In this document: piece by piece, positions 31,194 through 58,137 of the stretch
How the letters are laid out: each line of letters opens with the position of its first letter
How positions within the stretch are numbered: position 1 is the first letter of the stretch
Assembly: GCA_041651175.1 (NCBI GenBank)
Contig: JBAZJT010000002.1
Coordinates: 17,322 to 81,321, forward strand
DNA: 64,000 bases
Reading direction: 5' to 3'
Source of the DNA: Elusimicrobiales bacterium
GTDB lineage: Bacteria > Elusimicrobiota > Elusimicrobia > Elusimicrobiales > Elusimicrobiaceae
Notes under the pieces: model-generated
Databases searched by the model: none
Seen by the model: the letters and a program-made list of their open reading frames with translations, nothing else
Told to the model about the DNA's origin: nothing
Translations under genes and position numbers: made by a program

Positions 31194-31214
31194 AAAGATA
31201 CAATCTTGCCGGGT

Positions 31215-31240
31215 CCGGGAGCGGTTTCCCGGAGGTTTTT
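31215..31240 (+). terminator. candidate intrinsic terminator after the membrane-transporter gene
   Basis: CCGGGA-gcggtt-TCCCGG stem-loop followed by aggTTTTT, about 22 nt after the stop at 31193. Confidence 0.4.
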
Positions 31241-31308
31241 GTGATGGTCGGGCCGCCATCCGCAATTATTCCGGGCGGTTTTGCCGCCGTCCGGCAACGG
31301 AGGCGGTT

Positions 31309-32790
31309 ATGTGGACAAAAAGCGGGCTTCAGAAACTCACCAGGGAAAAACTGTCGGATTATGTGTTTGTTACGGCGTCCAACCGGCAGCCCTACGTTCA
31401 TAACAACAAATTCGGAAAAGTAACGGTCAGCCGCGGCTCAGGCGGCGTCATCACCGCGCTGGACCCTGTAATGCAGGCCTGCAACGGCGTCTGGGTCGCC
31501 TGGGGCAACGGCGACGCCGATAAAAAAGCGGCGGATGCCTCTGGCCGGCTGGCTGTTCCGCCGGACAACCCGGCATACACGTTAAAACGGATATGGCTCT
31601 CCAAAGCCGATGAAATCGGCTATTATTATGGGTTTTCCAACGAGGCGATATGGCCGCTGTGCCATACCGTGTTCAACCGCCCCGCCTTCCGGCAGGAGGA
31701 CTGGGACAGCTACGTCAAGGTGAACCGGAAATTCGCAGACGCCATCGCCGCCGAGTTGCAGGGGCGCAAGGCCTTTGTGTGGATTCAGGATTACCATCTG
31801 TGCCTGCTGCCAGCCATGCTCAAGGAAAAGCTGCCGAACCAGATTATCTCGGCCCATTTCTGGCATATTCCATGGCCGGCGCACGAGGTGTTCCGCATTT
31901 TCCCCAGGAAAAAAGAGATACTGGAGGGGCTGCTGGCCAACGACATGCTGGGCTTCCACATCCGCCTGCATTGCAGCAATTTCCTGGATGTCGTGGACCG
32001 CGAGCTGGAATGCAAGATAGACCGGGAGCGCCACTCCGTAGTGCGCGGCGGGCGCGAGACGCTGGTGCGCCCCTTCCCGATAAGCGTGGATTATGCCGAT
32101 ATACGCAAATCCCTCTCCCTCCAGAAAATAAAGGAGCTTAAGCAGCAGATAACCGAGGAATTCCCTATCGGCGGCAAAAAGCTGCTGCTGGGGCTGGACC
32201 GGATTGATTACACCAAGGGAATACCGGAGCGGCTGCTGGCGGTGGACAGAATGCTGGAAAAGCACCCCGAGCTTGCCGAGCAGTTCGTGTTCCTGCAGAT
32301 GGGCGAGCTCAGCCGCCTCCACATCCCGCGCTACAAGCAGCTCAACGACGAGATAAACTCGCTGGTTGAGCAGATAAACTGGAAGCACTCCACCGATTCG
32401 TGGAAGCCCATCATCCTCATCCGCCGGCATCTGAATTACCCGGAGCCGCTGGCCTTCTACGACTTGGGCGATGTCTGCGTGGTAAGCTCGCTGCACGACG
32501 GGATGAATCTTGTCGCCAAGGAATATGTGGCCGCCGCCGGCGAAGACAAGGGCATGCTGGTGCTGAGCCGCTTCACCGGCGCGTCCAGGGAACTGACAGA
32601 CGCCGTGCTGATAAACCCCTACGACCGGGAGCAGTTCGCCGAGGCGCTCTACTCCGCCGTTACAATGCCGCAGGAGGAGCGCCGCCGCCGCATGCTTAAA
32701 ATGAAGCAGGTGGTGGAGGAAAACAACATCTACCGCTGGGCGGGAAAAATAATATCGGAGCTGCTGAAACTGGATTTCGCCGAGCAATGA
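31309..32790 (+). CDS. otsA: alpha,alpha-trehalose-phosphate synthase (UDP-forming)
   Basis: 493 aa. GT20 motifs FSNEAIWPLCH, VWIQDYHL, GLDRIDYTKGI and LHDGMNLVAKEY. GGAGG Shine-Dalgarno. Confidence 0.9.
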   Translation: MWTKSGLQKLTREKLSDYVFVTASNRQPYVHNNKFGKVTVSRGSGGVITALDPVMQACNGVWVAWGNGDADKKAADASGRLAVPPDNPAYTLKRIWLSKADEIGYYYGFSNEAIWPLCHTVFNRPAFRQEDWDSYVKVNRKFADAIAAELQGRKAFVWIQDYHLCLLPAMLKEKLPNQIISAHFWHIPWPAHEVFRIFPRKKEILEGLLANDMLGFHIRLHCSNFLDVVDRELECKIDRERHSVVRGGRETLVRPFPISVDYADIRKSLSLQKIKELKQQITEEFPIGGKKLLLGLDRIDYTKGIPERLLAVDRMLEKHPELAEQFVFLQMGELSRLHIPRYKQLNDEINSLVEQINWKHSTDSWKPIILIRRHLNYPEPLAFYDLGDVCVVSSLHDGMNLVAKEYVAAAGEDKGMLVLSRFTGASRELTDAVLINPYDREQFAEALYSAVTMPQEERRRRMLKMKQVVEENNIYRWAGKIISELLKLDFAEQ

Positions 32791-52338: not shown

Positions 52339-53744
52339 GCCGGGGTTCCGGTTTCAGGCGGCGCGGACCGTCCTGTCTGCGAAGGCGAAGGCGGGGGCGG
52401 AGCAACGGCCCGTCCAGTCTGCCCCGGAGGGGGCGGCGCGGCGCGTCCTGTCTGCGAAGGCGAAGGCGGGGGTGGCGCGGCATGACCGGTCCGGGACGGG
52501 GGCGCGGGAGCAGCACGTCCGGTCTGTCCCGGGGGCGGCGGTGCGGCGCGTCCCGTTTGGGAAGGGGATGGCGGCGGCGGAGGGGCAGCCCGTCCGGTCT
52601 GTCCCGGAAGCGGCGGCACGGCGCGTCCGGTCTGCGCCGGAGAGGGCGGAGAGGGGGCGGGGCTGTCTGCGCGGGGCGGCGCGTCTGGCGCGTTCCGCTC
52701 TGTCCCGGGCGGCGCCTCTTTTTCTGTTCGGAAAGGCGGTTTCCCCGCCGTTTCCGGTTGAGTCTCGGATTGTCCGGCGGTTCTTGCTGTTTGCGAAACC
52801 GCGTCCGCGGACTGAGCCACTGCACCGTCCGTGCCCGGCGGCTGCGCCGCATCGGGTCTGGCGGAGGCGGCCCTGCGTTTTTTCTGGGCGATGCCGTCGC
52901 GCGCCACGGAAAGCGCGTGCACGGGATTCATCATGGCATAACCGGTTTCATCCAGCAGTTTTTTGCTGACAAGGCCGGCAAGCCTGGGGCGGGGGGCTTT
53001 TTGACCGGGCTGCGCGTTTACCGGCGTTATCATGTCAGCCGGAATGCCGAGCCGCTGGCAGGCTATCTGCGCGAATTCATACCGGCTCACAAAATCCGGC
53101 CCGGCGGCGTGGTAGAGCCCGGTTTTCTCCTTTAGAACAAGCAGCAGGACGGCGGCCGCCAGGTCGGGGGCGAAAGTCGGGGTGCAATACTCGGTTGAGG
53201 ATAGTTCCATCCGCTCGTTTTTTCCGGCTTTATCCATTATCTGCGTCAGCAAATTAGGCGAATCCGCTCCATAGACCCCGCTACTGCGTATGATGACGGA
53301 GCCGAACGAGGCGCCGGCACAGATTTTCTCCGCCTTGAGTTTGGTCTGGCCGTAGACGTTTACGGGATTTGGTTTGGCTGTTTCGTCGTAGGGGCCGCGG
53401 GCGCCGTCAAAGACATTATCGGTTGAAAGGCAGGCCAGCCGCGTTTTGTGCAGGTCGCACAGCCGGAGTATGTTGCGCGCGCCCTCTACGTTTACCTGCT
53501 CCGCCTGGCGCTCGTTTTCCTGGCATAAATCCGGGTCTGTCATGGCGGCGCAGAGTATGGCGGCATCCGGCTTGAACGATTCAAAAATTTCCTCAAAAGC
53601 ATGGGACAGCCGTATATCCGCCTTGAGCAGGCCGCCGGCATCGCTTTTAGCGGAGGTGCCTTTGGCTTCAATGGAGTAATTCCCGCATTCGCGCAGAATG
53701 GCCCCGCCCACCTGCCCGGAAGCGCCTATGACCAGTATTTTCAT
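52335..53744 (-). CDS. RmlD-like NAD(P)-dependent sugar-nucleotide reductase with ~180-aa Pro-rich repeat C-terminal tail
   Basis: Start taken at ATG 53744 (MKILVIGASGQVGGAIL). CAAMTDPDLCQ, STDNVFDG, NVYGQTKLKAE (YxxxK) match dTDP-4-dehydrorhamnose reductase by eye. The same ORF continues into the QTGRAAPPPP(SPS/G) repeats. Confidence 0.7.
   Translation of the reverse strand: MKILVIGASGQVGGAILRECGNYSIEAKGTSAKSDAGGLLKADIRLSHAFEEIFESFKPDAAILCAAMTDPDLCQENERQAEQVNVEGARNILRLCDLHKTRLACLSTDNVFDGARGPYDETAKPNPVNVYGQTKLKAEKICAGASFGSVIIRSSGVYGADSPNLLTQIMDKAGKNERMELSSTEYCTPTFAPDLAAAVLLLVLKEKTGLYHAAGPDFVSRYEFAQIACQRLGIPADMITPVNAQPGQKAPRPRLAGLVSKKLLDETGYAMMNPVHALSVARDGIAQKKRRAASARPDAAQPPGTDGAVAQSADAVSQTARTAGQSETQPETAGKPPFRTEKEAPPGTERNAPDAPPRADSPAPSPPSPAQTGRAVPPLPGQTGRAAPPPPPSPSQTGRAAPPPPGQTGRAAPAPPSRTGHAAPPPPSPSQTGRAAPPPPGQTGRAVAPPPPSPSQTGRSAPPETGTPA
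52338..52645 (-). repeat. in-frame imperfect tandem repeat, 75-nt (25-codon) period, ~4 copies
   Basis: tcctgtctgcgaaggcgaaggcggggg recurs exactly 75 nt apart (about 52371 and 52446). The encoded units alternate between QTGRAAPPPPSPS and QTGRAAPPPPG. Confidence 0.8.
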
Positions 53745-53865: not shown

Positions 53866-54849
53866 TTACCGTGAAACTTTTTCCGCCGCGCCTGAAAACA
53901 CCTTGTCCATGGCTGATTTGATGCCGGAGCGCACCGCTTCCGTGGCGGCGCCGTTCCATTGCTTGGGGTCGGCGCGCAGAAAGCTGGTTTTATCCACGCG
54001 GTTGTCAAAACGGCCTATGGGCAGGTAAAAAGTCCTGCTGCGGGTTTCCACGGAGATTGCGCCCGGGCGGGGGGAATGCTGCTCCAGCCAGTCCATGTCG
54101 TCGCAGCCGTAATCGCCCAGCATGACGGCTTCGGGCACGCCGTGGTGGAGTATGGAGCCGGGGTCGTCCGGGTTGGCGCGCGCGGCGTTTTTGCGGCGGG
54201 ATTCCTCCGGCGTTACCCAGATATAAAGTATCACGGCTTTTTTGAGAATTTCATCCGACAACAGCGCCAGCGAATGCCTGTAGCCGAACGGCGACTTCAG
54301 CGGCATGGGAGAGCCCTGCGCCCCGCCGCGCGCAAATTCTATCACCACCGTTTTCCCTTCAAGCGGGGCATAGGCGGCGGTTTTTTCCCTGATAAGCTTG
54401 GCCGATTCCGCTTCAAGCGCGGCGCAGATTTTGGATTGCGCCGCCGCGTCCAGCCGGGAGAATCTTCCCGAAATGCCGCATTTGCCGGCGGCGCGCTCTA
54501 TGCGCGCCAGCGTCCGGGCGGCGGCATCGCCCGCCGGATAGCTTTTTTGCGCCGCAAGGTCGGCATAATCCTCGTTAATAAGCTCTATAAGCGTTCCCCA
54601 GTCGCGCGGGTCGGCGAAGGGTTTGTCCGGCGCGGAAAAAAACATGCGCGGCTTGCCCAGTGCGGCGGCCTCGTCGTCCGCGCGGCGCATGATATGCACA
54701 TACGGGAAATCGTCCAGCTGGACGGTCGGTCCCATGTGAAAACTGTCGCGGCAGGTTTGCGGGGTCTGGAATTCCAGATACCGCCGCACCTCCGATTTGC
54801 CCGAAGCCGGCAGCGCCAGCAGCAACACGATGTCCAGAGTGTCTTTCAT
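53866..54849 (-). CDS. uncharacterised P-loop protein (Walker A LPASGKS, PFK-2/kinase-like?)
   Basis: 327 aa. DIVLLLALPASGKSEVRRYL resembles the GLPARGKT P-loop of 6-phosphofructo-2-kinase-type kinases. VVIEFARGG is a possible Walker B strand. Host-like high GC. ATGA overlap with the HNH gene stop. Confidence 0.5.
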   Translation of the reverse strand: MKDTLDIVLLLALPASGKSEVRRYLEFQTPQTCRDSFHMGPTVQLDDFPYVHIMRRADDEAAALGKPRMFFSAPDKPFADPRDWGTLIELINEDYADLAAQKSYPAGDAAARTLARIERAAGKCGISGRFSRLDAAAQSKICAALEAESAKLIREKTAAYAPLEGKTVVIEFARGGAQGSPMPLKSPFGYRHSLALLSDEILKKAVILYIWVTPEESRRKNAARANPDDPGSILHHGVPEAVMLGDYGCDDMDWLEQHSPRPGAISVETRSRTFYLPIGRFDNRVDKTSFLRADPKQWNGAATEAVRSGIKSAMDKVFSGAAEKVSR

Positions 54850-55472
54850 AGTGGTTTCTCCTCTCGTCTACCGATAAAAGCGCATGTGACGGAATAATGC
54901 GGTTTAAGTTTTCCGTTTTCTGGTTTTAAGTAAGAATCCTCAATAAATCGGTATCCTTCGGCTTTGTTCGGAAAACCTTTCAATATATTATCCAGCGTTA
55001 TCCAGTGGGTTTTTCTGCGCCCACATAATTTGAAGTCGTCGCGCAGGTTTAGCAACTTTATCATATACTGGCTGTTGCCACCATTCGGCGACACTTTGCC
55101 ATTACTCAAGTACATGAATATTTTGCTGTCATAGGTGCTGGAATGAGGATCTGTAAATTTCGCTGCGTCGTAGTTATTGCTTTTGTGGTGGCCGCAATGC
55201 TCTTTTGTGTTGCATGAGTAAGCAAGGTTGCTATATTCGTATTTGGCATCGGGATAAGTTGAGCGAGGTTTCATATGCTCAATATGCCCATCTTGTGTTG
55301 ATGGCACAGCCGATTCGCAATAGCAACATAAAAAATGCTGCTCACTAATCAATGACTCTCCAACTTTTTGGTGACAGGCCCCATTCGTTTGCGCAAAAAC
55401 CCCCCATTCTTGACCTGATGGTTGGCTGCCAAGACAAGATGGCGGAGATGGCGTCCTAGTGATTTTCTTCAT
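54846..55472 (-). CDS. ptuB: small HNH endonuclease, PtuB-like (TIGR02646-type)
   Basis: 208 aa. CCYCES-x8-GHIEHMKPRS ... NLAYSCNTKEHCGHHKSN is the C-x-Y-C-E / H-I-E-H / C..CG..K pattern of the HNH partner of Septu/retron ATPases. Low GC. 17-nt overlap with the ATPase gene. Confidence 0.75.
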   Translation of the reverse strand: MKKITRTPSPPSCLGSQPSGQEWGVFAQTNGACHQKVGESLISEQHFLCCYCESAVPSTQDGHIEHMKPRSTYPDAKYEYSNLAYSCNTKEHCGHHKSNNYDAAKFTDPHSSTYDSKIFMYLSNGKVSPNGGNSQYMIKLLNLRDDFKLCGRRKTHWITLDNILKGFPNKAEGYRFIEDSYLKPENGKLKPHYSVTCAFIGRREEKPL

Positions 55473-56808
55473 TCTTCTTGGCTAAATAGTCCAACTGTTT
55501 TATTCGCATTGCGGCATATTGCAAATCTTTATCGCCTGTTCCCAGTTCGTTCTGCAATTCTTCCAGCAACCTGATGGCTTCATCTGTATTATGTTGACGC
55601 TTCTCCACCAACCCAAGATATTGAGTCAGTTTTTCTTCCTGTACCGGCGGGCGCGGGGGAACGTCAAAAATTTCCGCCAAAACTCTATTGCTTTCGCTGC
55701 CGAGGGTTCCCATGTCATCTGCAATATCGGACAATGCCCCATCCTCATTGATGATTCTTATATGCTTTTTATGCACAGACGTAATCACCTGCGGGGAATG
55801 GGTGGTAACGATAAATTGTATTGATGGGAATGCCCTGGTCAGGGAAGGCAGAATTGTTTGCTGCCATTTCGGATGCAGGTGCATATCAATTTCATCAATC
55901 AGCACAATGCCTTGAGTGGTTTTGATGGCTTCCTGGGCTGGCAAATGAGAGTTAAGTCTTATCGCGCGGTGGGCAATATCCGCGGTCAGCGCCACCATAT
56001 TTCTGACACCGTCGCTGAGCCAGTCCACCGGCAGGGTTATGCCGGTAGACGCCTGTTCCATGATAATGCCGTCCTTGGATCCCTTGAAGTCAATGTTTTT
56101 CCAGTCCAAAGGCTCAATAATAGCGTTCACGGCTGTTTTGAAAGCTTGCAAAGAGGCTTGTATTTTCTCCAATTGCAGGGGATTGTCTCGTTCGTCAAAT
56201 GCCGCGCGGTGAAATCTCTCAAACCATTCCGCGAAAATTTTGTAACTAGACATCCCTGACAGACAAAGCATATACCCGGCGGTGCGGGACAAGTTTTCTT
56301 TTCTTTTTGTGAAAAACCGCATGTCGCCCCACAAGCGTCCTGTCCCGTAATAGGAGATTAAAGGCAAAGCGACAGACACGGAAGCTGTTTGGACTTGTTT
56401 CTGCAAATGTTTGCCAAAATTTATAAGTGGTCTGCTTCCGCCATATGTTGTATGAGACTTGTCTCCGGACAACATTCTTTCCCATTTTTCCTGATTGCCA
56501 TCTATAATTCCATCAGCAAACATCTTCACGGGAAATTGTTTTTCTGATTCTCTCATGCCTGCGGATGATTCCAAGAGTTTGCGCCTGACATCAGACGTGT
56601 GGAATTGAGCGCTTTGCACTGTGCCAAAAACGCCGACAAATGGTCCCAGCGCAATGGCCACAGCATCAAGAACCGCTGTTTTCCCGCAACCGTTTTTCGC
56701 CACAAGAACAGTCAGCTTTTCATCAAAAGCAATCGCCAGTTTTTCAAAGCGGCGGTAGTTGTGTAATTCCAGACTTCTTATTTGTAACAGCTTCTTGTCA
56801 TCGCTCAT
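55456..56808 (-). CDS. ptuA: ABC/SMC-like AAA_15/AAA_21-type ATPase, PtuA-like
   Basis: 450 aa. Walker A LTVLVAKNGCGKTAVLDA. LSDGVRNM signature-like. Walker B GIVLIDEIDMHLHPKWQ. FIVTTHSPQV. Low GC (23/60 and 26/60 in hand-counted lines). GAAGGGGA Shine-Dalgarno 4 nt upstream. Confidence 0.75.
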   Translation of the reverse strand: MSDDKKLLQIRSLELHNYRRFEKLAIAFDEKLTVLVAKNGCGKTAVLDAVAIALGPFVGVFGTVQSAQFHTSDVRRKLLESSAGMRESEKQFPVKMFADGIIDGNQEKWERMLSGDKSHTTYGGSRPLINFGKHLQKQVQTASVSVALPLISYYGTGRLWGDMRFFTKRKENLSRTAGYMLCLSGMSSYKIFAEWFERFHRAAFDERDNPLQLEKIQASLQAFKTAVNAIIEPLDWKNIDFKGSKDGIIMEQASTGITLPVDWLSDGVRNMVALTADIAHRAIRLNSHLPAQEAIKTTQGIVLIDEIDMHLHPKWQQTILPSLTRAFPSIQFIVTTHSPQVITSVHKKHIRIINEDGALSDIADDMGTLGSESNRVLAEIFDVPPRPPVQEEKLTQYLGLVEKRQHNTDEAIRLLEELQNELGTGDKDLQYAAMRIKQLDYLAKKNEENH

Positions 56809-56833
56809 AAAGTCCCCTTCACACGCCGCCCAT

Positions 56834-56841
56834 ATATTACA
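56834..56841 (-). promoter_or_regulatory. weak -10-like element TG+TAATAT in the 39-nt spacer upstream of the ATPase gene
   Basis: The minus strand reads cgatttTGTAATATatgggcggcgtgtGAAGGGGActttATG. This would give the cassette its own promoter and Shine-Dalgarno. Very tentative. Confidence 0.2.
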
Positions 56842-56847
56842 AAATCG

Positions 56848-58104
56848 TCAAAGGCTATTTCCGCCGGATATGGTTTGCCTGGCAGCCGCGTCGGCTTTCA
56901 GGATGGCGGAAAACTCTTTTCCGCAGTTGAAAAATTCCGCAACCAGCAGGCCTGCGGATGCGAGCGTTTTCATGTTTGCGGGCTTTGGCGCGGGGCCGCC
57001 TGAAACTTTCGCCAGCAAAGGCAGCGGTTCCCGGTTGTGATAGCCGTAGTCCGCGCGGTGGGCCATGCCGTGGTCCGCCGTTATTATAAGCAGGTCGCCT
57101 CTGGCGAGGCTGCGCATGATTTCGCCCAGCATGGCGTCGGCGGCCTCCAGGCAGCGCAACGCGCCTTCCGCGTCGCGGGTATGGCCGTAAAGACTGTCCG
57201 TATCCACGAAATTGGAGAAAATGAAGGTTCCGTTCGGGCGGTAAACGGTTTTGGAGGCGGCAACCGCGTTATATGTCCCCTGCGCCGACAGTGGATTTGT
57301 ATCCTTGCCCTGCGGATGGATAAAGCCGCGGACAAACTGCGGGGAGACGAAGGCTTTGTCGGCCAGCTTTACTCTCTCGTGCCAGCCGGCGTTCACCAGC
57401 TCCGCCGTTTTGCCGACGGCGCAGGCCCATACGCCTCGCACCGCAAGAATGTCCGGCAGGGTTTTGCCCTGCAGCGGCAGCACGGCGTCGTGGCGGTTGG
57501 CGGTGCGTATTATCTCGCCGCCGGGGCCGCGTCTGTAGGCGCGCGCTATCGCGCGGGTAACGGGAATGCCCATCTCCTTGGCAAGCGCAAACGCGGCGTC
57601 GGCTATGGAGTGCTGCTCGCGCACGGGAATAACGGCCTCGCTCATGGCGATTTGGATGAGCGGGTCGCATTTGCTGGCATAGACTATGGGATGTCCGGTT
57701 GTTTCATGCTCCAGCGCGTTAAGCTCTATCGCCTCCATGCCGCCGGCCATTTTGTTGAATATCGTTTTGCGGCCCACAAGCAGCTCCAGCGCGCGTATAT
57801 AGTTTTCCGGGAAACCGTCCGGGAAAAGGCTGAAGGTGCGGTTATCCACCACGCCCATCATCTCGCGGTGGCCCACCACGCTGTCGGCTGAGGCGGAGGC
57901 CTGCTCAACGCGCGCGGCAAAGGAGTCCGCGTCCGTTTTCGCGCCGATTTGGGCTTTGTGCTCCGGGGAAACTATTTCGCCAAGCCCAAGCGCGGCCAGA
58001 TTTGGAATGTTCAGCGGCCCGGGATGTTTTGAAAGCAGATAATCCAGAGTGTCCAGCCCGACGGCATCTATGACAAGCAGCAGGGCTGTCTTGGAATTGG
58101 ACAT
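56848..58104 (-). CDS. deoB: phosphopentomutase-like metalloenzyme (DeoB / alkaline-phosphatase superfamily)
   Basis: ALLLVIDAVGLDT, NIPNLAALGL, DSVVGHRE, IFSNFVDTDSLYGHTRD, LLIITADHGMAHRADYGYHNREPLPLL are collinear with E. coli DeoB motifs. I prefer ATG 58104 (GGAG 6 nt upstream) to the track GTG 58119. Confidence 0.7.
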   Translation of the reverse strand: MSNSKTALLLVIDAVGLDTLDYLLSKHPGPLNIPNLAALGLGEIVSPEHKAQIGAKTDADSFAARVEQASASADSVVGHREMMGVVDNRTFSLFPDGFPENYIRALELLVGRKTIFNKMAGGMEAIELNALEHETTGHPIVYASKCDPLIQIAMSEAVIPVREQHSIADAAFALAKEMGIPVTRAIARAYRRGPGGEIIRTANRHDAVLPLQGKTLPDILAVRGVWACAVGKTAELVNAGWHERVKLADKAFVSPQFVRGFIHPQGKDTNPLSAQGTYNAVAASKTVYRPNGTFIFSNFVDTDSLYGHTRDAEGALRCLEAADAMLGEIMRSLARGDLLIITADHGMAHRADYGYHNREPLPLLAKVSGGPAPKPANMKTLASAGLLVAEFFNCGKEFSAILKADAAARQTISGGNSL

Positions 58105-58137
58105 GGGGAACTCCGTCACTTATGCCTGCCTCGATAG

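What the first reader, a model, noticed from the sequence alone, without database searches (positions are those of the whole stretch)
54846..56847. Low-GC ATPase + HNH two-gene cassette (Septu PtuA/PtuB-like) inserted into a high-GC host gene array without any mobility genes
Seen in sequence:
- Hand GC counts of single 60-nt lines are 26/60 (55441-55500) and 23/60 (56401-56460) inside. They are 39/60 (54781-54840) and 36/60 (57001-57060) immediately outside.
- So composition drops by about 20 points exactly between the ATG of the downstream gene (54849) and the stop of the upstream gene (56848).
- Two overlapping minus-strand genes fill the interval.
- The first is a 450-aa ABC/SMC-like ATPase with Walker A VAKNGCGKT, LSDG, Walker B VLIDEIDMHLHP and TTHSPQ.
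- The second is a 208-aa HNH protein with CCYCES...GHIEHMKPRS...CNTKEHCGHHKSN.

Established knowledge: an AAA_15/21-type ATPase plus a TIGR02646-type HNH nuclease is the Septu (PtuA/PtuB) anti-phage architecture. The same pair also serves as the effector module of some retrons.

Inference:
- This is a horizontally acquired defence cassette.
- No integrase, transposase, tRNA or flanking direct repeats are present.
- Only 39 nt separate it from the upstream host gene, and there is a 4-nt ATGA overlap downstream.
- It therefore sits inside a >14-kb co-directional array (smc ... glf-like), as if expressed with host genes.
- At 450 aa the ATPase looks short for PtuA.
- Whether it is a diverged or new subtype cannot be judged without a search.
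Basis: partly seen in the sequence, partly recalled or inferred. Interest (0 to 1): 0.72.

Follow-up and report, generated by a model that had tools for sequence, protein, structure and literature searches.

The report
Acquired Septu anti-phage gene pair
This is an ordinary, intact two-gene Septu anti-phage system (PtuA ATPase plus PtuB HNH nuclease) that an uncultured Elusimicrobiales bacterium picked up by horizontal transfer; it is a new host for a well-known system, not a new system.

Summary
Two overlapping minus-strand genes (55456-56808, 450 aa; 54846-55472, 208 aa) fill a 2-kb segment of 45.6% GC. The rest of the window is 62% GC, and this segment is its strongest compositional outlier.

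Both proteins match stand-alone (type I) Septu PtuA and PtuB profiles over their full length. The closest solved structures are the E. coli Septu PtuA and PtuB. A length of 450 aa is normal (family median 447 aa), so this is not a short or new subtype. No reverse transcriptase or ncRNA is adjacent, so it is not a retron.

Horizontal acquisition is well supported:
- Relatives keep the same two flanking genes but carry a TPR gene, with or without a transporter, between them. None carries ptuAB.
- A sibling lineage has the cassette at the same left junction. Synonymous divergence there is 0.09, against about 1.1 in the adjacent host gene.
- Two independent assemblies are identical across both junctions, so it is not a chimera.

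No mobility gene, tRNA or flanking repeat is present. The downstream P-loop gene is a conserved host gene, not a third component. NCBI already annotates the pair. Ordinary; low interest.

The parts
55456..56808 (-). ptuA: a 450-aa ABC/SMC-type ATPase of stand-alone (type I) Septu. Walker A is G40-T44 (K43), the signature motif is LSDG 264-267, Walker B is VLIDE 302-306 (D305/E306), and the H-loop is TTHSP 335-339.
   Evidence: PADLOC PDLC00310 PtuA1 scores E=6e-138, covering residues 8-445 against profile positions 1-440 of 443. Pfam AAA_15, AAA_21, AAA_23 and SMC_N all match. PDB 8ee4 PtuA scores E=8e-72 in a single stretch, residues 9-432. All 89 positions that are at least 95% conserved are retained.
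54846..55472 (-). ptuB: a 208-aa HNH nuclease of the TIGR02646 type. It has C49/C50/C52, the H63-x-x-H66 motif, N82, C87, C93 and H95/H96. It overlaps ptuA by 17 nt.
   Evidence: PADLOC PDLC00332 PtuB1 scores E=1e-37 over residues 1-199. TIGR02646 scores 67.6 bits against a cut-off of 52.15. PDB 8ee7_C PtuB scores E=6e-14.
56809..56847 (-). The 39-nt spacer between the stop of the deoB-like gene and the ptuA ATG. It carries a purine-rich ribosome-binding stretch (GAAGGGGA) but no predicted promoter or terminator on this strand.
   Evidence: The sequence is. The promoter/terminator scan found nothing on the minus strand here. The RNA fold of 56780-56960 is not more stable than shuffles (z=-1.1). 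The spacer is 97% identical to the sibling allele L009.
56848..56950 (-). The last ~33 codons of the host deoB-like gene. They belong to the same young, nearly identical tract as the cassette when compared with the sibling lineage, so the left recombination breakpoint probably lies here. The C-terminal tail after '...KEF' is not conserved in more distant relatives.
   Evidence: dS is 0.04 here, against 1.13 in the preceding 70 codons.
54846..54870 (-). The right-hand junction. The ptuB reading frame runs ~7 codons (RREEKPL) past its relatives' C-termini and through the host gene's Shine-Dalgarno sequence (GAGAGGAGA). It ends at a TGA that overlaps the ATG of the P-loop gene (ATGA).
   Evidence: The PtuB alignment and the upstream regions of P-loop genes in relatives are.
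56848..58119 (-). The upstream flanking host gene: a phosphopentomutase-like metalloenzyme (deoB-like) with host composition.
   Evidence: Pfam Metalloenzyme matches at 2.6e-18. NF003766 scores 224 bits, below its cut-off of 256. GC3 is 0.72. Relatives at 62-69% identity are syntenic.
53866..54849 (-). The downstream flanking host gene: a conserved 327-aa P-loop kinase-like protein of unknown function. It is not part of the defence cassette.
   Evidence: It has host-like GC. There are 3641 homologues, at about 55-69% identity in Elusimicrobiota and other phyla, and none of those inspected sits next to ptuAB. It has no PADLOC, Pfam or NCBIfam hit. The AF2 model has pLDDT 92.8 and only weak matches to nucleoside and dephospho-CoA kinases.

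Best explanation
The segment 54846-56808 encodes a complete, intact stand-alone (type I) Septu anti-phage system. ptuA encodes an ABC-type ATPase and ptuB encodes an HNH nuclease.

Mechanism, by homology to characterised Septu systems (inferred, not shown here). PtuA oligomerises and holds PtuB through the PtuA C-terminal extension. In E. coli this is a 6:2 PtuA:PtuB complex. ATP-bound PtuA keeps the nuclease in check. Phage infection, through phage proteins and/or ATP depletion, releases the nuclease. The nuclease then nicks DNA and/or cleaves tRNA-Tyr in the variable loop, arresting the infected cell and stopping phage propagation.

Origin (shown by comparison). The pair is foreign DNA in an Elusimicrobiales chromosome. 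It occupies a slot between two conserved, co-directional host genes, a deoB-like metalloenzyme and a P-loop kinase-like gene. In relatives that slot holds a TPR gene, with or without a radical-SAM gene and an ABC transporter.

Spread and expression (inferred). The cassette most likely spread between related Elusimicrobiales lineages by homologous recombination through the flanking genes, which explains the lack of any integrase, transposase, tRNA or repeat. It is probably transcribed by read-through of the host array. The ptuB stop is translationally coupled to the downstream host gene.
For: Identity:
- PtuA1 and PtuB1 profiles are matched over their full length.
- TIGR02646 scores above its cut-off.
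- The best PDB matches are Septu PtuA 8ee4 (E=8e-72, one stretch) and PtuB 8ee7_C.
- The Walker A lysine is K43, as in the tested Septu EcB88 (PMC13096335).
- All 89 family-conserved PtuA positions are kept.
- ptuA dN/dS is 0.35 against the sibling allele, which indicates purifying selection.
- The nearest relatives (52-53% identity) all have an adjacent PtuB of about 200 aa. Some sit in obvious defence islands.

Not a retron:
- The neighbours are a metalloenzyme and a P-loop gene.
- There is no Rfam hit nearby.
- The retron Ec78 PtuA equivalog scores 262 bits against a cut-off of 500. The retron N-terminal extension is absent.

Foreign origin:
- GC is 0.456 against 0.621 +/- 0.020, and the cassette is the top tetranucleotide outlier.
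- GC3 is 0.50/0.44 against 0.72.
- At least five distinct relatives' loci (L010/L011/L015, L012, L016, L017, L018) keep deoB-like and P-loop in synteny with a TPR gene (+/- others) between them, and no ptuAB.
- Against the sibling lineage L009, dS is 1.13 in the deoB-like body, 0.04 in its last 33 codons and 0.089 in ptuA.

Real, not chimeric: the ENA and Logan assemblies are 100% identical to the window across both junctions.

Mechanism from the literature: PMC12819146, PMC13096335 and PMC12640716.
Against: - No functional data exist for this locus. The trigger, substrate (DNA or tRNA) and stoichiometry are extrapolated from E. coli systems that are only distantly related (PtuA E=8e-72, PtuB E=6e-14).
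- No truly empty site (deoB-like directly abutting P-loop) was found. The closest syntenic relatives are only 65-69% identical.
- The sibling-lineage comparison rests on one 1.8-kb contig and only 103 codons of host gene. The right-hand junction of that lineage was not recovered.
- Read-through expression is inferred only from spacing and a consensus sigma-70 scan, which may not apply to Elusimicrobiota.
Confidence: 0.88

Rival explanations
1. The pair is the effector module of a type I-A retron (Ec78/Eco7- or Ec83/Eco4-like). Its reverse transcriptase and ncRNA would be missed or encoded elsewhere.
For: NCBI names the PtuB 'retron system putative HNH endonuclease'. PADLOC HNH_I-A scores as well as PtuB1 (127.6 against 128 bits). 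The retron PtuA structures are significant PDB hits (E=1e-40).
Against: - The immediate neighbours are a metalloenzyme and a P-loop gene, and no RVT domain lies within about 10 kb.
- Only 39 nt lie upstream of ptuA, with no stable structure (z=-1.1), and Rfam finds nothing.
- NF041760 scores 262 bits against a cut-off of 500, and NF041761 scores 97 against 150.
- PtuA matches stand-alone PtuA in one stretch, but matches retron PtuA only in pieces that start at retron residue 65. The retron N-terminal extension is therefore absent.
- The literature says PtuB does not separate by retron association whereas PtuA does (PMC12819146).
Confidence: 0.02
2. The two genes are an inactive or decaying remnant of a once-acquired Septu system and no longer provide defence.
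For: The cassette stands alone rather than in a defence island. It has no recognisable promoter of its own. The ptuB C-terminus is extended into host sequence.
Against: Both ORFs are full length against their profiles. All 89 conserved PtuA positions and the HNH/Cys motifs are intact. dN/dS is 0.35 between the two alleles.
Confidence: 0.06
3. It is a non-defence ABC-ATPase/HNH pair, for example a DNA-repair module, an OLD/Gabija-like module or an AbiEii/toxin-antitoxin-like module, that merely resembles Septu.
For: Pfam sees only generic AAA_15, AAA_21, AAA_23 and SMC_N domains, and the HNH hit is below threshold. There are weak hits to RecF/Rad50 N-termini, AriA and OLD.
Against: The Septu-specific profiles score 300-450 bits over the full length, while the alternatives score 15-45 bits and cover only the Walker A region. 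There is no Toprim domain. The PtuA-upstream-of-PtuB pairing is conserved in all the nearest relatives.
Confidence: 0.03
4. The low-GC segment is native, vertically inherited DNA with atypical composition, or an artefact of metagenome assembly (a chimeric contig).
For: The source is a MAG. No mobility gene, tRNA or repeat marks the borders.
Against: Independent assemblies from different runs are 100% identical across both junctions. A third, divergent contig shows the same left junction. Relatives with the same flanks lack the genes. dS is more than 10-fold lower in the cassette than in the flanking host gene. GC3, not just amino-acid composition, is shifted.
Confidence: 0.01

Closest known systems
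E. coli stand-alone Septu PtuAB (PDB 8EE4/8EE7/8EEA; Li et al. 2024 NSMB, cited in PMC12640716 and PMC13096335)
   Same: - It has the same two-gene architecture.
- PtuA aligns end to end (E=8e-72), with Walker A, the LSDG signature, Walker B and the TTHSPQ H-loop conserved.
- PtuB aligns over residues 19-205, with the CCYxE...HIEH...N motifs conserved.
- The lengths are similar (450 against 465 aa, and 208 against 243 aa).
   Different: - The sequences are distant, and PtuB scores only E=6e-14.
- The host is Elusimicrobiales rather than Enterobacteria.
- The 6:2 assembly and ATP inhibition are not verified here.
- Here the system is embedded in a housekeeping gene array rather than carried on a recognisable mobile element.
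Septu EcB88 (PMC13096335)
   Same: It is a stand-alone PtuAB. The Walker A lysine is at the same position (K43). The paper shows that the ATPase and H-N-H residues are required for immunity, and those residues are conserved here.
   Different: Cleavage of tRNA-Tyr in the variable loop was shown only for the E. coli system. The substrate of this homologue is unknown.
Retron type I-A (Ec78/Eco7, Ec83/Eco4) PtuAB effector module
   Same: It has a homologous ATPase core, PtuA C-terminal region and PtuB.
   Different: There is no RT and no ncRNA. PtuA lacks the retron-specific N-terminal extension and matches only in pieces. The NCBIfam equivalog cut-offs are not reached.
Defence systems in core-gene-flanked chromosomal slots with no identifiable means of mobilisation (P. 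aeruginosa core defence hotspots, PMC10250203; noted in PMC10121019)
   Same: The accessory cassette lies between conserved flanking genes whose intervening content varies between relatives. No integrase or transposase is present.
   Different: In the relatives sampled, the other occupants of the slot are not defence genes (TPR, radical SAM, ABC sugar transporter). This is therefore not shown to be a dedicated defence hotspot.

Membership tests
Septu, stand-alone / type I (PtuA + PtuB) | PtuA: an ABC/SMC-type ATPase that matches PtuA profiles over its full length | tested here: met
   PADLOC PDLC00310 scores E=6e-138 (residues 8-445 on profile positions 1-440 of 443), and PDLC00278 scores E=2e-135. 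PDB 8ee4 PtuA scores E=8e-72.
Septu, stand-alone / type I (PtuA + PtuB) | Intact nucleotide-binding motifs (Walker A lysine, signature, Walker B, H-loop) | tested here: met
   G40-CGK43-T44, LSDG264-267, VLIDE302-306 and TTHSP335-339 are present. All 89 columns that are at least 95% conserved among 117 homologues are retained.
Septu, stand-alone / type I (PtuA + PtuB) | PtuB: an HNH nuclease of the TIGR02646 family with the H-N-H and Cys motifs | tested here: met
   TIGR02646 scores 67.6 bits against a cut-off of 52.15. PtuB1 PDLC00332 scores E=1e-37. H63/H66, N82, H95/H96 and C49/50/52/87/93 are conserved in the alignment. Pfam HNH alone is below its cut-off (17.7 against 21.4 bits).
Septu, stand-alone / type I (PtuA + PtuB) | ptuA lies immediately upstream of ptuB on the same strand, as one operon | tested here: met
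   The genes overlap by 17 nt on the minus strand. The same order is found in the nearest relatives L095, L096 and L097.
Septu, stand-alone / type I (PtuA + PtuB) | PtuA6:PtuB2 assembly with ATP-inhibited nuclease activity | not testable with these tools
   This is known only from the E. coli complex (PMC12640716 and PMC12819146). It needs biochemistry or cryo-EM.
Septu, stand-alone / type I (PtuA + PtuB) | Confers resistance to phage infection | not testable with these tools
Retron type I-A (Ec78/Ec83-like, 'type II Septu') | A reverse transcriptase gene adjacent to ptuAB | tested here: not met
   The neighbours are a metalloenzyme and a P-loop protein. No RVT family appears among the Pfam hits for genes within about 10 kb.
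Retron type I-A (Ec78/Ec83-like, 'type II Septu') | An msr/msd ncRNA upstream | tested here: not met
   The only Rfam gathering-level hit in the window is nhaA-I at 31211. The spacer is only 39 nt. The fold of 56780-56960 has z=-1.1.
Retron type I-A (Ec78/Ec83-like, 'type II Septu') | PtuA carries the retron-specific N-terminal extension and helical flap and reaches the equivalog score | tested here: not met
   NF041760 scores 262 bits against a cut-off of 500. The alignment to Ec78 PtuA begins at its residue 65 and is broken into three pieces.
OLD / Gabija GajA / PARIS AriA ABC-ATPase defence families | A family-specific profile match beyond the shared P-loop, and a Toprim domain for OLD/GajA | tested here: not met
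   AriA scores E=2e-6 and OLD scores E=4.5e-4, each over only about 50 residues. No Toprim domain appears in Pfam.
Chromosomal defence hotspot between core genes | Conserved flanking genes with variable content, and recurrent occupancy by defence systems | tested here: inconclusive
   The flanks are syntenic and the content is variable in L010-L018. The other occupants are not defence genes, and no other PADLOC hits were found among the window's neighbours.

The most novel reading that the evidence does not exclude
The cassette spreads among diverged Elusimicrobiales lineages purely by homologous recombination through the flanking core genes, with a breakpoint about 100 nt inside the deoB-like gene. 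In doing so it displaced an ancestral TPR gene and became hard-wired into a host smc-to-glycosylation operon. It would have no promoter of its own, and ptuB would be translationally coupled to a highly conserved kinase-like host gene. Expression of the defence system and of an essential-looking host gene would then be mutually dependent.
Probability: 0.3. Interest if true: 0.35.

Novelty: new member of a known kind. Interest (0 to 1): 0.2.

Why it matters
It adds a Septu system to a poorly studied, uncultured phylum (Elusimicrobiota). It also gives a clean small example of a defence cassette moving between related lineages without any mobility gene: synonymous divergence is more than 10-fold lower than in the adjoining host gene. 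Neither point changes what is known about Septu or about the mobility of defence systems. The practical value is limited to annotation: the NCBI name 'retron system putative HNH endonuclease' is misleading here, because there is no retron.

Tried and rejected
- Genome-collection scan with the deoB-like protein. It returned only distant Elusimicrobiota or Clostridia loci with different GC and no synteny, so it was useless for finding an empty site.
- PtuB homologue search. It gave only the protein itself and one hit at 49% identity. The sibling lineage's right junction could not be recovered.
- Search for an exact empty site. None was found; the closest syntenic relatives (65-69% identity) carry a TPR gene in the slot.
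- Flanking direct and inverted repeats. Only short chance-level matches turned up, none bracketing the cassette.
- tRNA scan and Rfam scan. Neither found anything near the locus.
- Promoter/terminator scan. No minus-strand promoter lies upstream of ptuA and no minus-strand terminator follows ptuB. The plus-strand hits are irrelevant.
- RNA fold upstream of ptuA. It was not significant.
- First TPR search. I extracted the deoB-like ORF by mistake. I corrected this.
- Li et al. 2024 (PMC12318543). The paper is not held, so its findings are cited second-hand from PMC12640716, PMC12819146 and PMC13096335.
- The P-loop gene as a third Septu component. Rejected: it has host GC, thousands of homologues occur without ptuAB, it has no PADLOC hit, and its fold is kinase-like.


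Full report
**1. The observation**

The two minus-strand ORFs exist exactly as described: 55456-56808 (450 aa) and 54846-55472 (208 aa). All quoted motifs are present (sequence).
- The genes overlap each other by 17 nt.
- The ptuA ATG lies 39 nt after the stop of the upstream gene.
- The ptuB stop shares ATGA with the start of the downstream gene.

The composition break is real and strong.
- The cassette is 45.6% GC. All other 2-kb windows give 62.1 +/- 2.0% (minimum 56.4%).
- It is the lowest-GC 2 kb in the window and the largest tetranucleotide outlier.
- Third-position GC is 0.50 and 0.44, against 0.72 +/- 0.06 for 42 other ORFs. The shift is therefore in codon choice and not only in amino-acid content.

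Other context checks:
- The co-directional array from smc to the amino-oxidase-type gene spans about 14.3 kb.
- There is no tRNA, no bracketing repeat and no mobility-gene domain within about 10 kb.
- None of the neighbouring genes hits a defence model. The pair is solitary and not part of a defence island.

**2. What it is**

The evidence for PtuA:
- It matches PADLOC PtuA1 profiles end to end (PDLC00310, E=6e-138, residues 8-445 on 440 of 443 profile positions).
- In the PDB it matches the stand-alone E. coli Septu PtuA (8ee4, 465 aa) in one stretch, at E=8e-72.

The evidence for PtuB:
- It matches PtuB1 (E=1e-37).
- It passes the curated TIGR02646 cut-off (67.6 against 52.15 bits).
- It matches the Septu PtuB chain 8ee7_C (E=6e-14).

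More than 4000 PtuA homologues were found. The listed ones have a median length of 447 aa, so 450 aa is typical and not short.

The window protein keeps every one of the 89 alignment columns that are at least 95% conserved in 117 homologues. These include K43 in Walker A, the LSDG signature, D305/E306 and the TTHSP H-loop. K43 is the residue whose mutation abolishes immunity in Septu EcB88 (PMC13096335). PtuB keeps the Cys cluster and the H-N-H residues.

The nearest non-self relatives (52-53% identity) all carry an adjacent PtuB of about 200 aa. One sits beside a DpnII restriction-modification system, GmrSD and a transposase, and another sits beside SNF2 and AAA_15 genes.

**3. Not a retron**

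NCBI names this PtuB 'retron system putative HNH endonuclease', after the TIGR02646 family name. The evidence is against a retron.
- The neighbours are a metalloenzyme and a P-loop protein.
- Only 39 nt precede ptuA, with no significant structure. Rfam finds nothing nearby.
- The retron Ec78 PtuA and PtuB equivalog models score far below their cut-offs (262 against 500 bits, and 97 against 150).
- The alignment to Ec78 PtuA starts at retron residue 65 and is fragmented. This fits the published finding that retron PtuA gained an N-terminal extension and a helical flap that stand-alone PtuA lacks (PMC12819146).

**4. Origin**

The window is from an Elusimicrobiales MAG. The contig was assembled independently by ENA and by Logan, from a different run. 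Both assemblies are 100% identical to the window across both junctions, which rules out a chimera.

The downstream 327-aa P-loop gene belongs to a large conserved family: 3641 homologues, at 55-69% identity. I inspected relatives that contain both flanking genes (L010/L011/L015, L012, L016, L017 and L018). L013 and L014 carry the same TPR-to-P-loop arrangement as L016, but their contigs lack the deoB-like body.
- In all of them the deoB-like gene is followed by a TPR gene.
- The TPR gene stands alone (L016), or is followed by ABC sugar-transporter genes (L017, L018), preceded by a radical-SAM gene in L010/L011/L012/L015. The P-loop gene comes after that.
- None of them has ptuAB.
- The window has no orthologue of that TPR gene.

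The slot is therefore variable, and ptuAB occupies the position of the TPR gene. No strictly empty site was found.

**5. A sibling lineage**

A 1.8-kb contig from another sample (L009) carries the same left junction. Nucleotide identity to the window is 60-86% in the body of the deoB-like gene. It rises to 92-98% over the last ~100 nt of that gene and stays near 96% through the spacer and ptuA.

| Region | Nei-Gojobori dS |
|---|---|
| deoB-like, first 70 available codons | 1.13 |
| deoB-like, last 33 codons | 0.04 |
| ptuA (dN/dS 0.35) | 0.089 |
| ptuB, first 53 codons | 0.175 |

The cassette alleles are more than ten times younger than their host backgrounds. The switch inside a host-composition gene points to homologous recombination between related Elusimicrobiales, not independent insertions. 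The caveat is that this rests on one short contig and 103 host codons.

**6. The junctions**

On the left, the deoB-like C-terminal tail after '...KEF' is unlike that of relatives. It lies within the young tract.

On the right, PtuB runs ~7 residues (RREEKPL) beyond the C-termini of its closest homologues. It reads through the host gene's Shine-Dalgarno sequence (GAGAGGAGA, compare the relatives' upstream regions) to the TGA of the ATGA overlap. I infer that the foreign/host boundary lies about 20-25 nt upstream of the P-loop ATG and that the host gene's own ribosome-binding site was preserved.

The consensus scan predicts no minus-strand promoter upstream of ptuA and no terminator after ptuB. 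Co-transcription with the host array is therefore plausible but untested.

**7. How it most likely works**

This section is inferred by homology. In E. coli, PtuA and PtuB form a 6:2 complex in which a pair of PtuA C-terminal extensions clamps each PtuB. ATP binding suppresses nuclease activity. Phage infection, through phage proteins and/or falling ATP, activates the nuclease. [quoted passage not shown] All the residues needed for this are present here. The trigger and the substrate in Elusimicrobiales are unknown.

**8. The downstream P-loop gene**

It is a host gene.
- Its GC is host-like.
- It is conserved without ptuAB in every other genome examined.
- It has no defence-model, Pfam, NCBIfam or PDB sequence hit.
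- A confident AF2 model (pLDDT 92.8) resembles nucleoside and dephospho-CoA kinases only weakly (best Foldseek E=2.8e-3, TM about 0.3).

It is an uncharacterised kinase-like family, interesting in its own right but unrelated to Septu.

**9. Verdict**

The worries about a short or novel PtuA are unfounded. This is a canonical type I Septu system in a new host, acquired laterally into a variable slot between conserved genes. Such mobility-gene-free placement between core genes has been described before (PMC10250203; noted in PMC10121019). Novelty: a new member of a known kind. Interest is low.

Noticed in passing
window 53866-54849 (-): This is a 327-aa P-loop protein (Walker A LALPASGKSE) from a very large, highly conserved family. 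There are 3641 homologues at 55-69% identity across Elusimicrobiota and Myxococcota-type MAGs. The family has no Pfam, NCBIfam, PADLOC or PDB sequence match. A confident AF2 model (pLDDT 92.8) has only weak similarity to dephospho-CoA, deoxynucleoside and thymidylate kinases (Foldseek E>=2.8e-3, TM about 0.3). It looks like an uncharacterised kinase-like family.
   Followed up: partly
L010-L018 (relatives), between the deoB-like and P-loop genes: The interval between the two conserved genes varies among Elusimicrobiota relatives. It holds a TPR gene alone (L016; the partial contigs L013/L014 show the same TPR-to-P-loop arrangement), a TPR gene plus a four-gene ABC sugar transporter (L017, L018), or a TPR gene, a radical-SAM gene and that transporter (L010/L011/L012/L015). 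The window lineage has lost the TPR gene entirely.
   Followed up: partly
window 52357-52714 (-), the C-terminal part of ORF 52335-53792/54008: A GC-rich (72-75%) imperfect tandem repeat, with periods of about 33-39 and 75 nt, encodes a proline-rich repeat (…PPPPSPSQTGRAAPPPPGQTGRAA…). It is appended to an RmlD/epimerase-like enzyme, which is an unusual low-complexity tail for a sugar-nucleotide enzyme.
   Followed up: no
window 31211-31261 (+): An nhaA-I riboswitch (Rfam RF03057, 52.9 bits against a gathering score of 37) lies just upstream of a 493-aa ORF at 31309-32790. It was the only Rfam family found in the window.
   Followed up: no
window 56848-56911 (-); L009 1-312: The last ~20 residues of the deoB-like protein (SAILKADAAARQTISGGNSL) are unrelated to the C-termini of its relatives. 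The tail is shared almost identically with the sibling lineage, so it may have been remodelled when the cassette arrived.
   Followed up: partly
L095, L096, L097 (nearest PtuA relatives): The closest Septu cassettes also deviate in GC from their own flanks (0.52 against 0.65, 0.55 against 0.48, and 0.59 against 0.64). This PtuAB clade therefore appears to be transferred frequently between hosts of different composition. L096 is a compact defence island (DpnII R-M, GmrSD, Septu and a DDE transposase).
   Followed up: partly
L021 2711-3670 and 5540-6595: One relative carries two copies of the P-loop kinase-like gene about 2 kb apart (62% and 50% identity to the window protein).
   Followed up: no
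window 55313-55472 (-) vs L009 1688-1847: The N-terminal ~35 residues of PtuB are the most divergent part of the cassette between the two alleles (GSQPSGQE against DNQPPDQK, and 9 non-synonymous against 5 synonymous differences in 53 codons). This hints at faster evolution of that segment.
   Followed up: no
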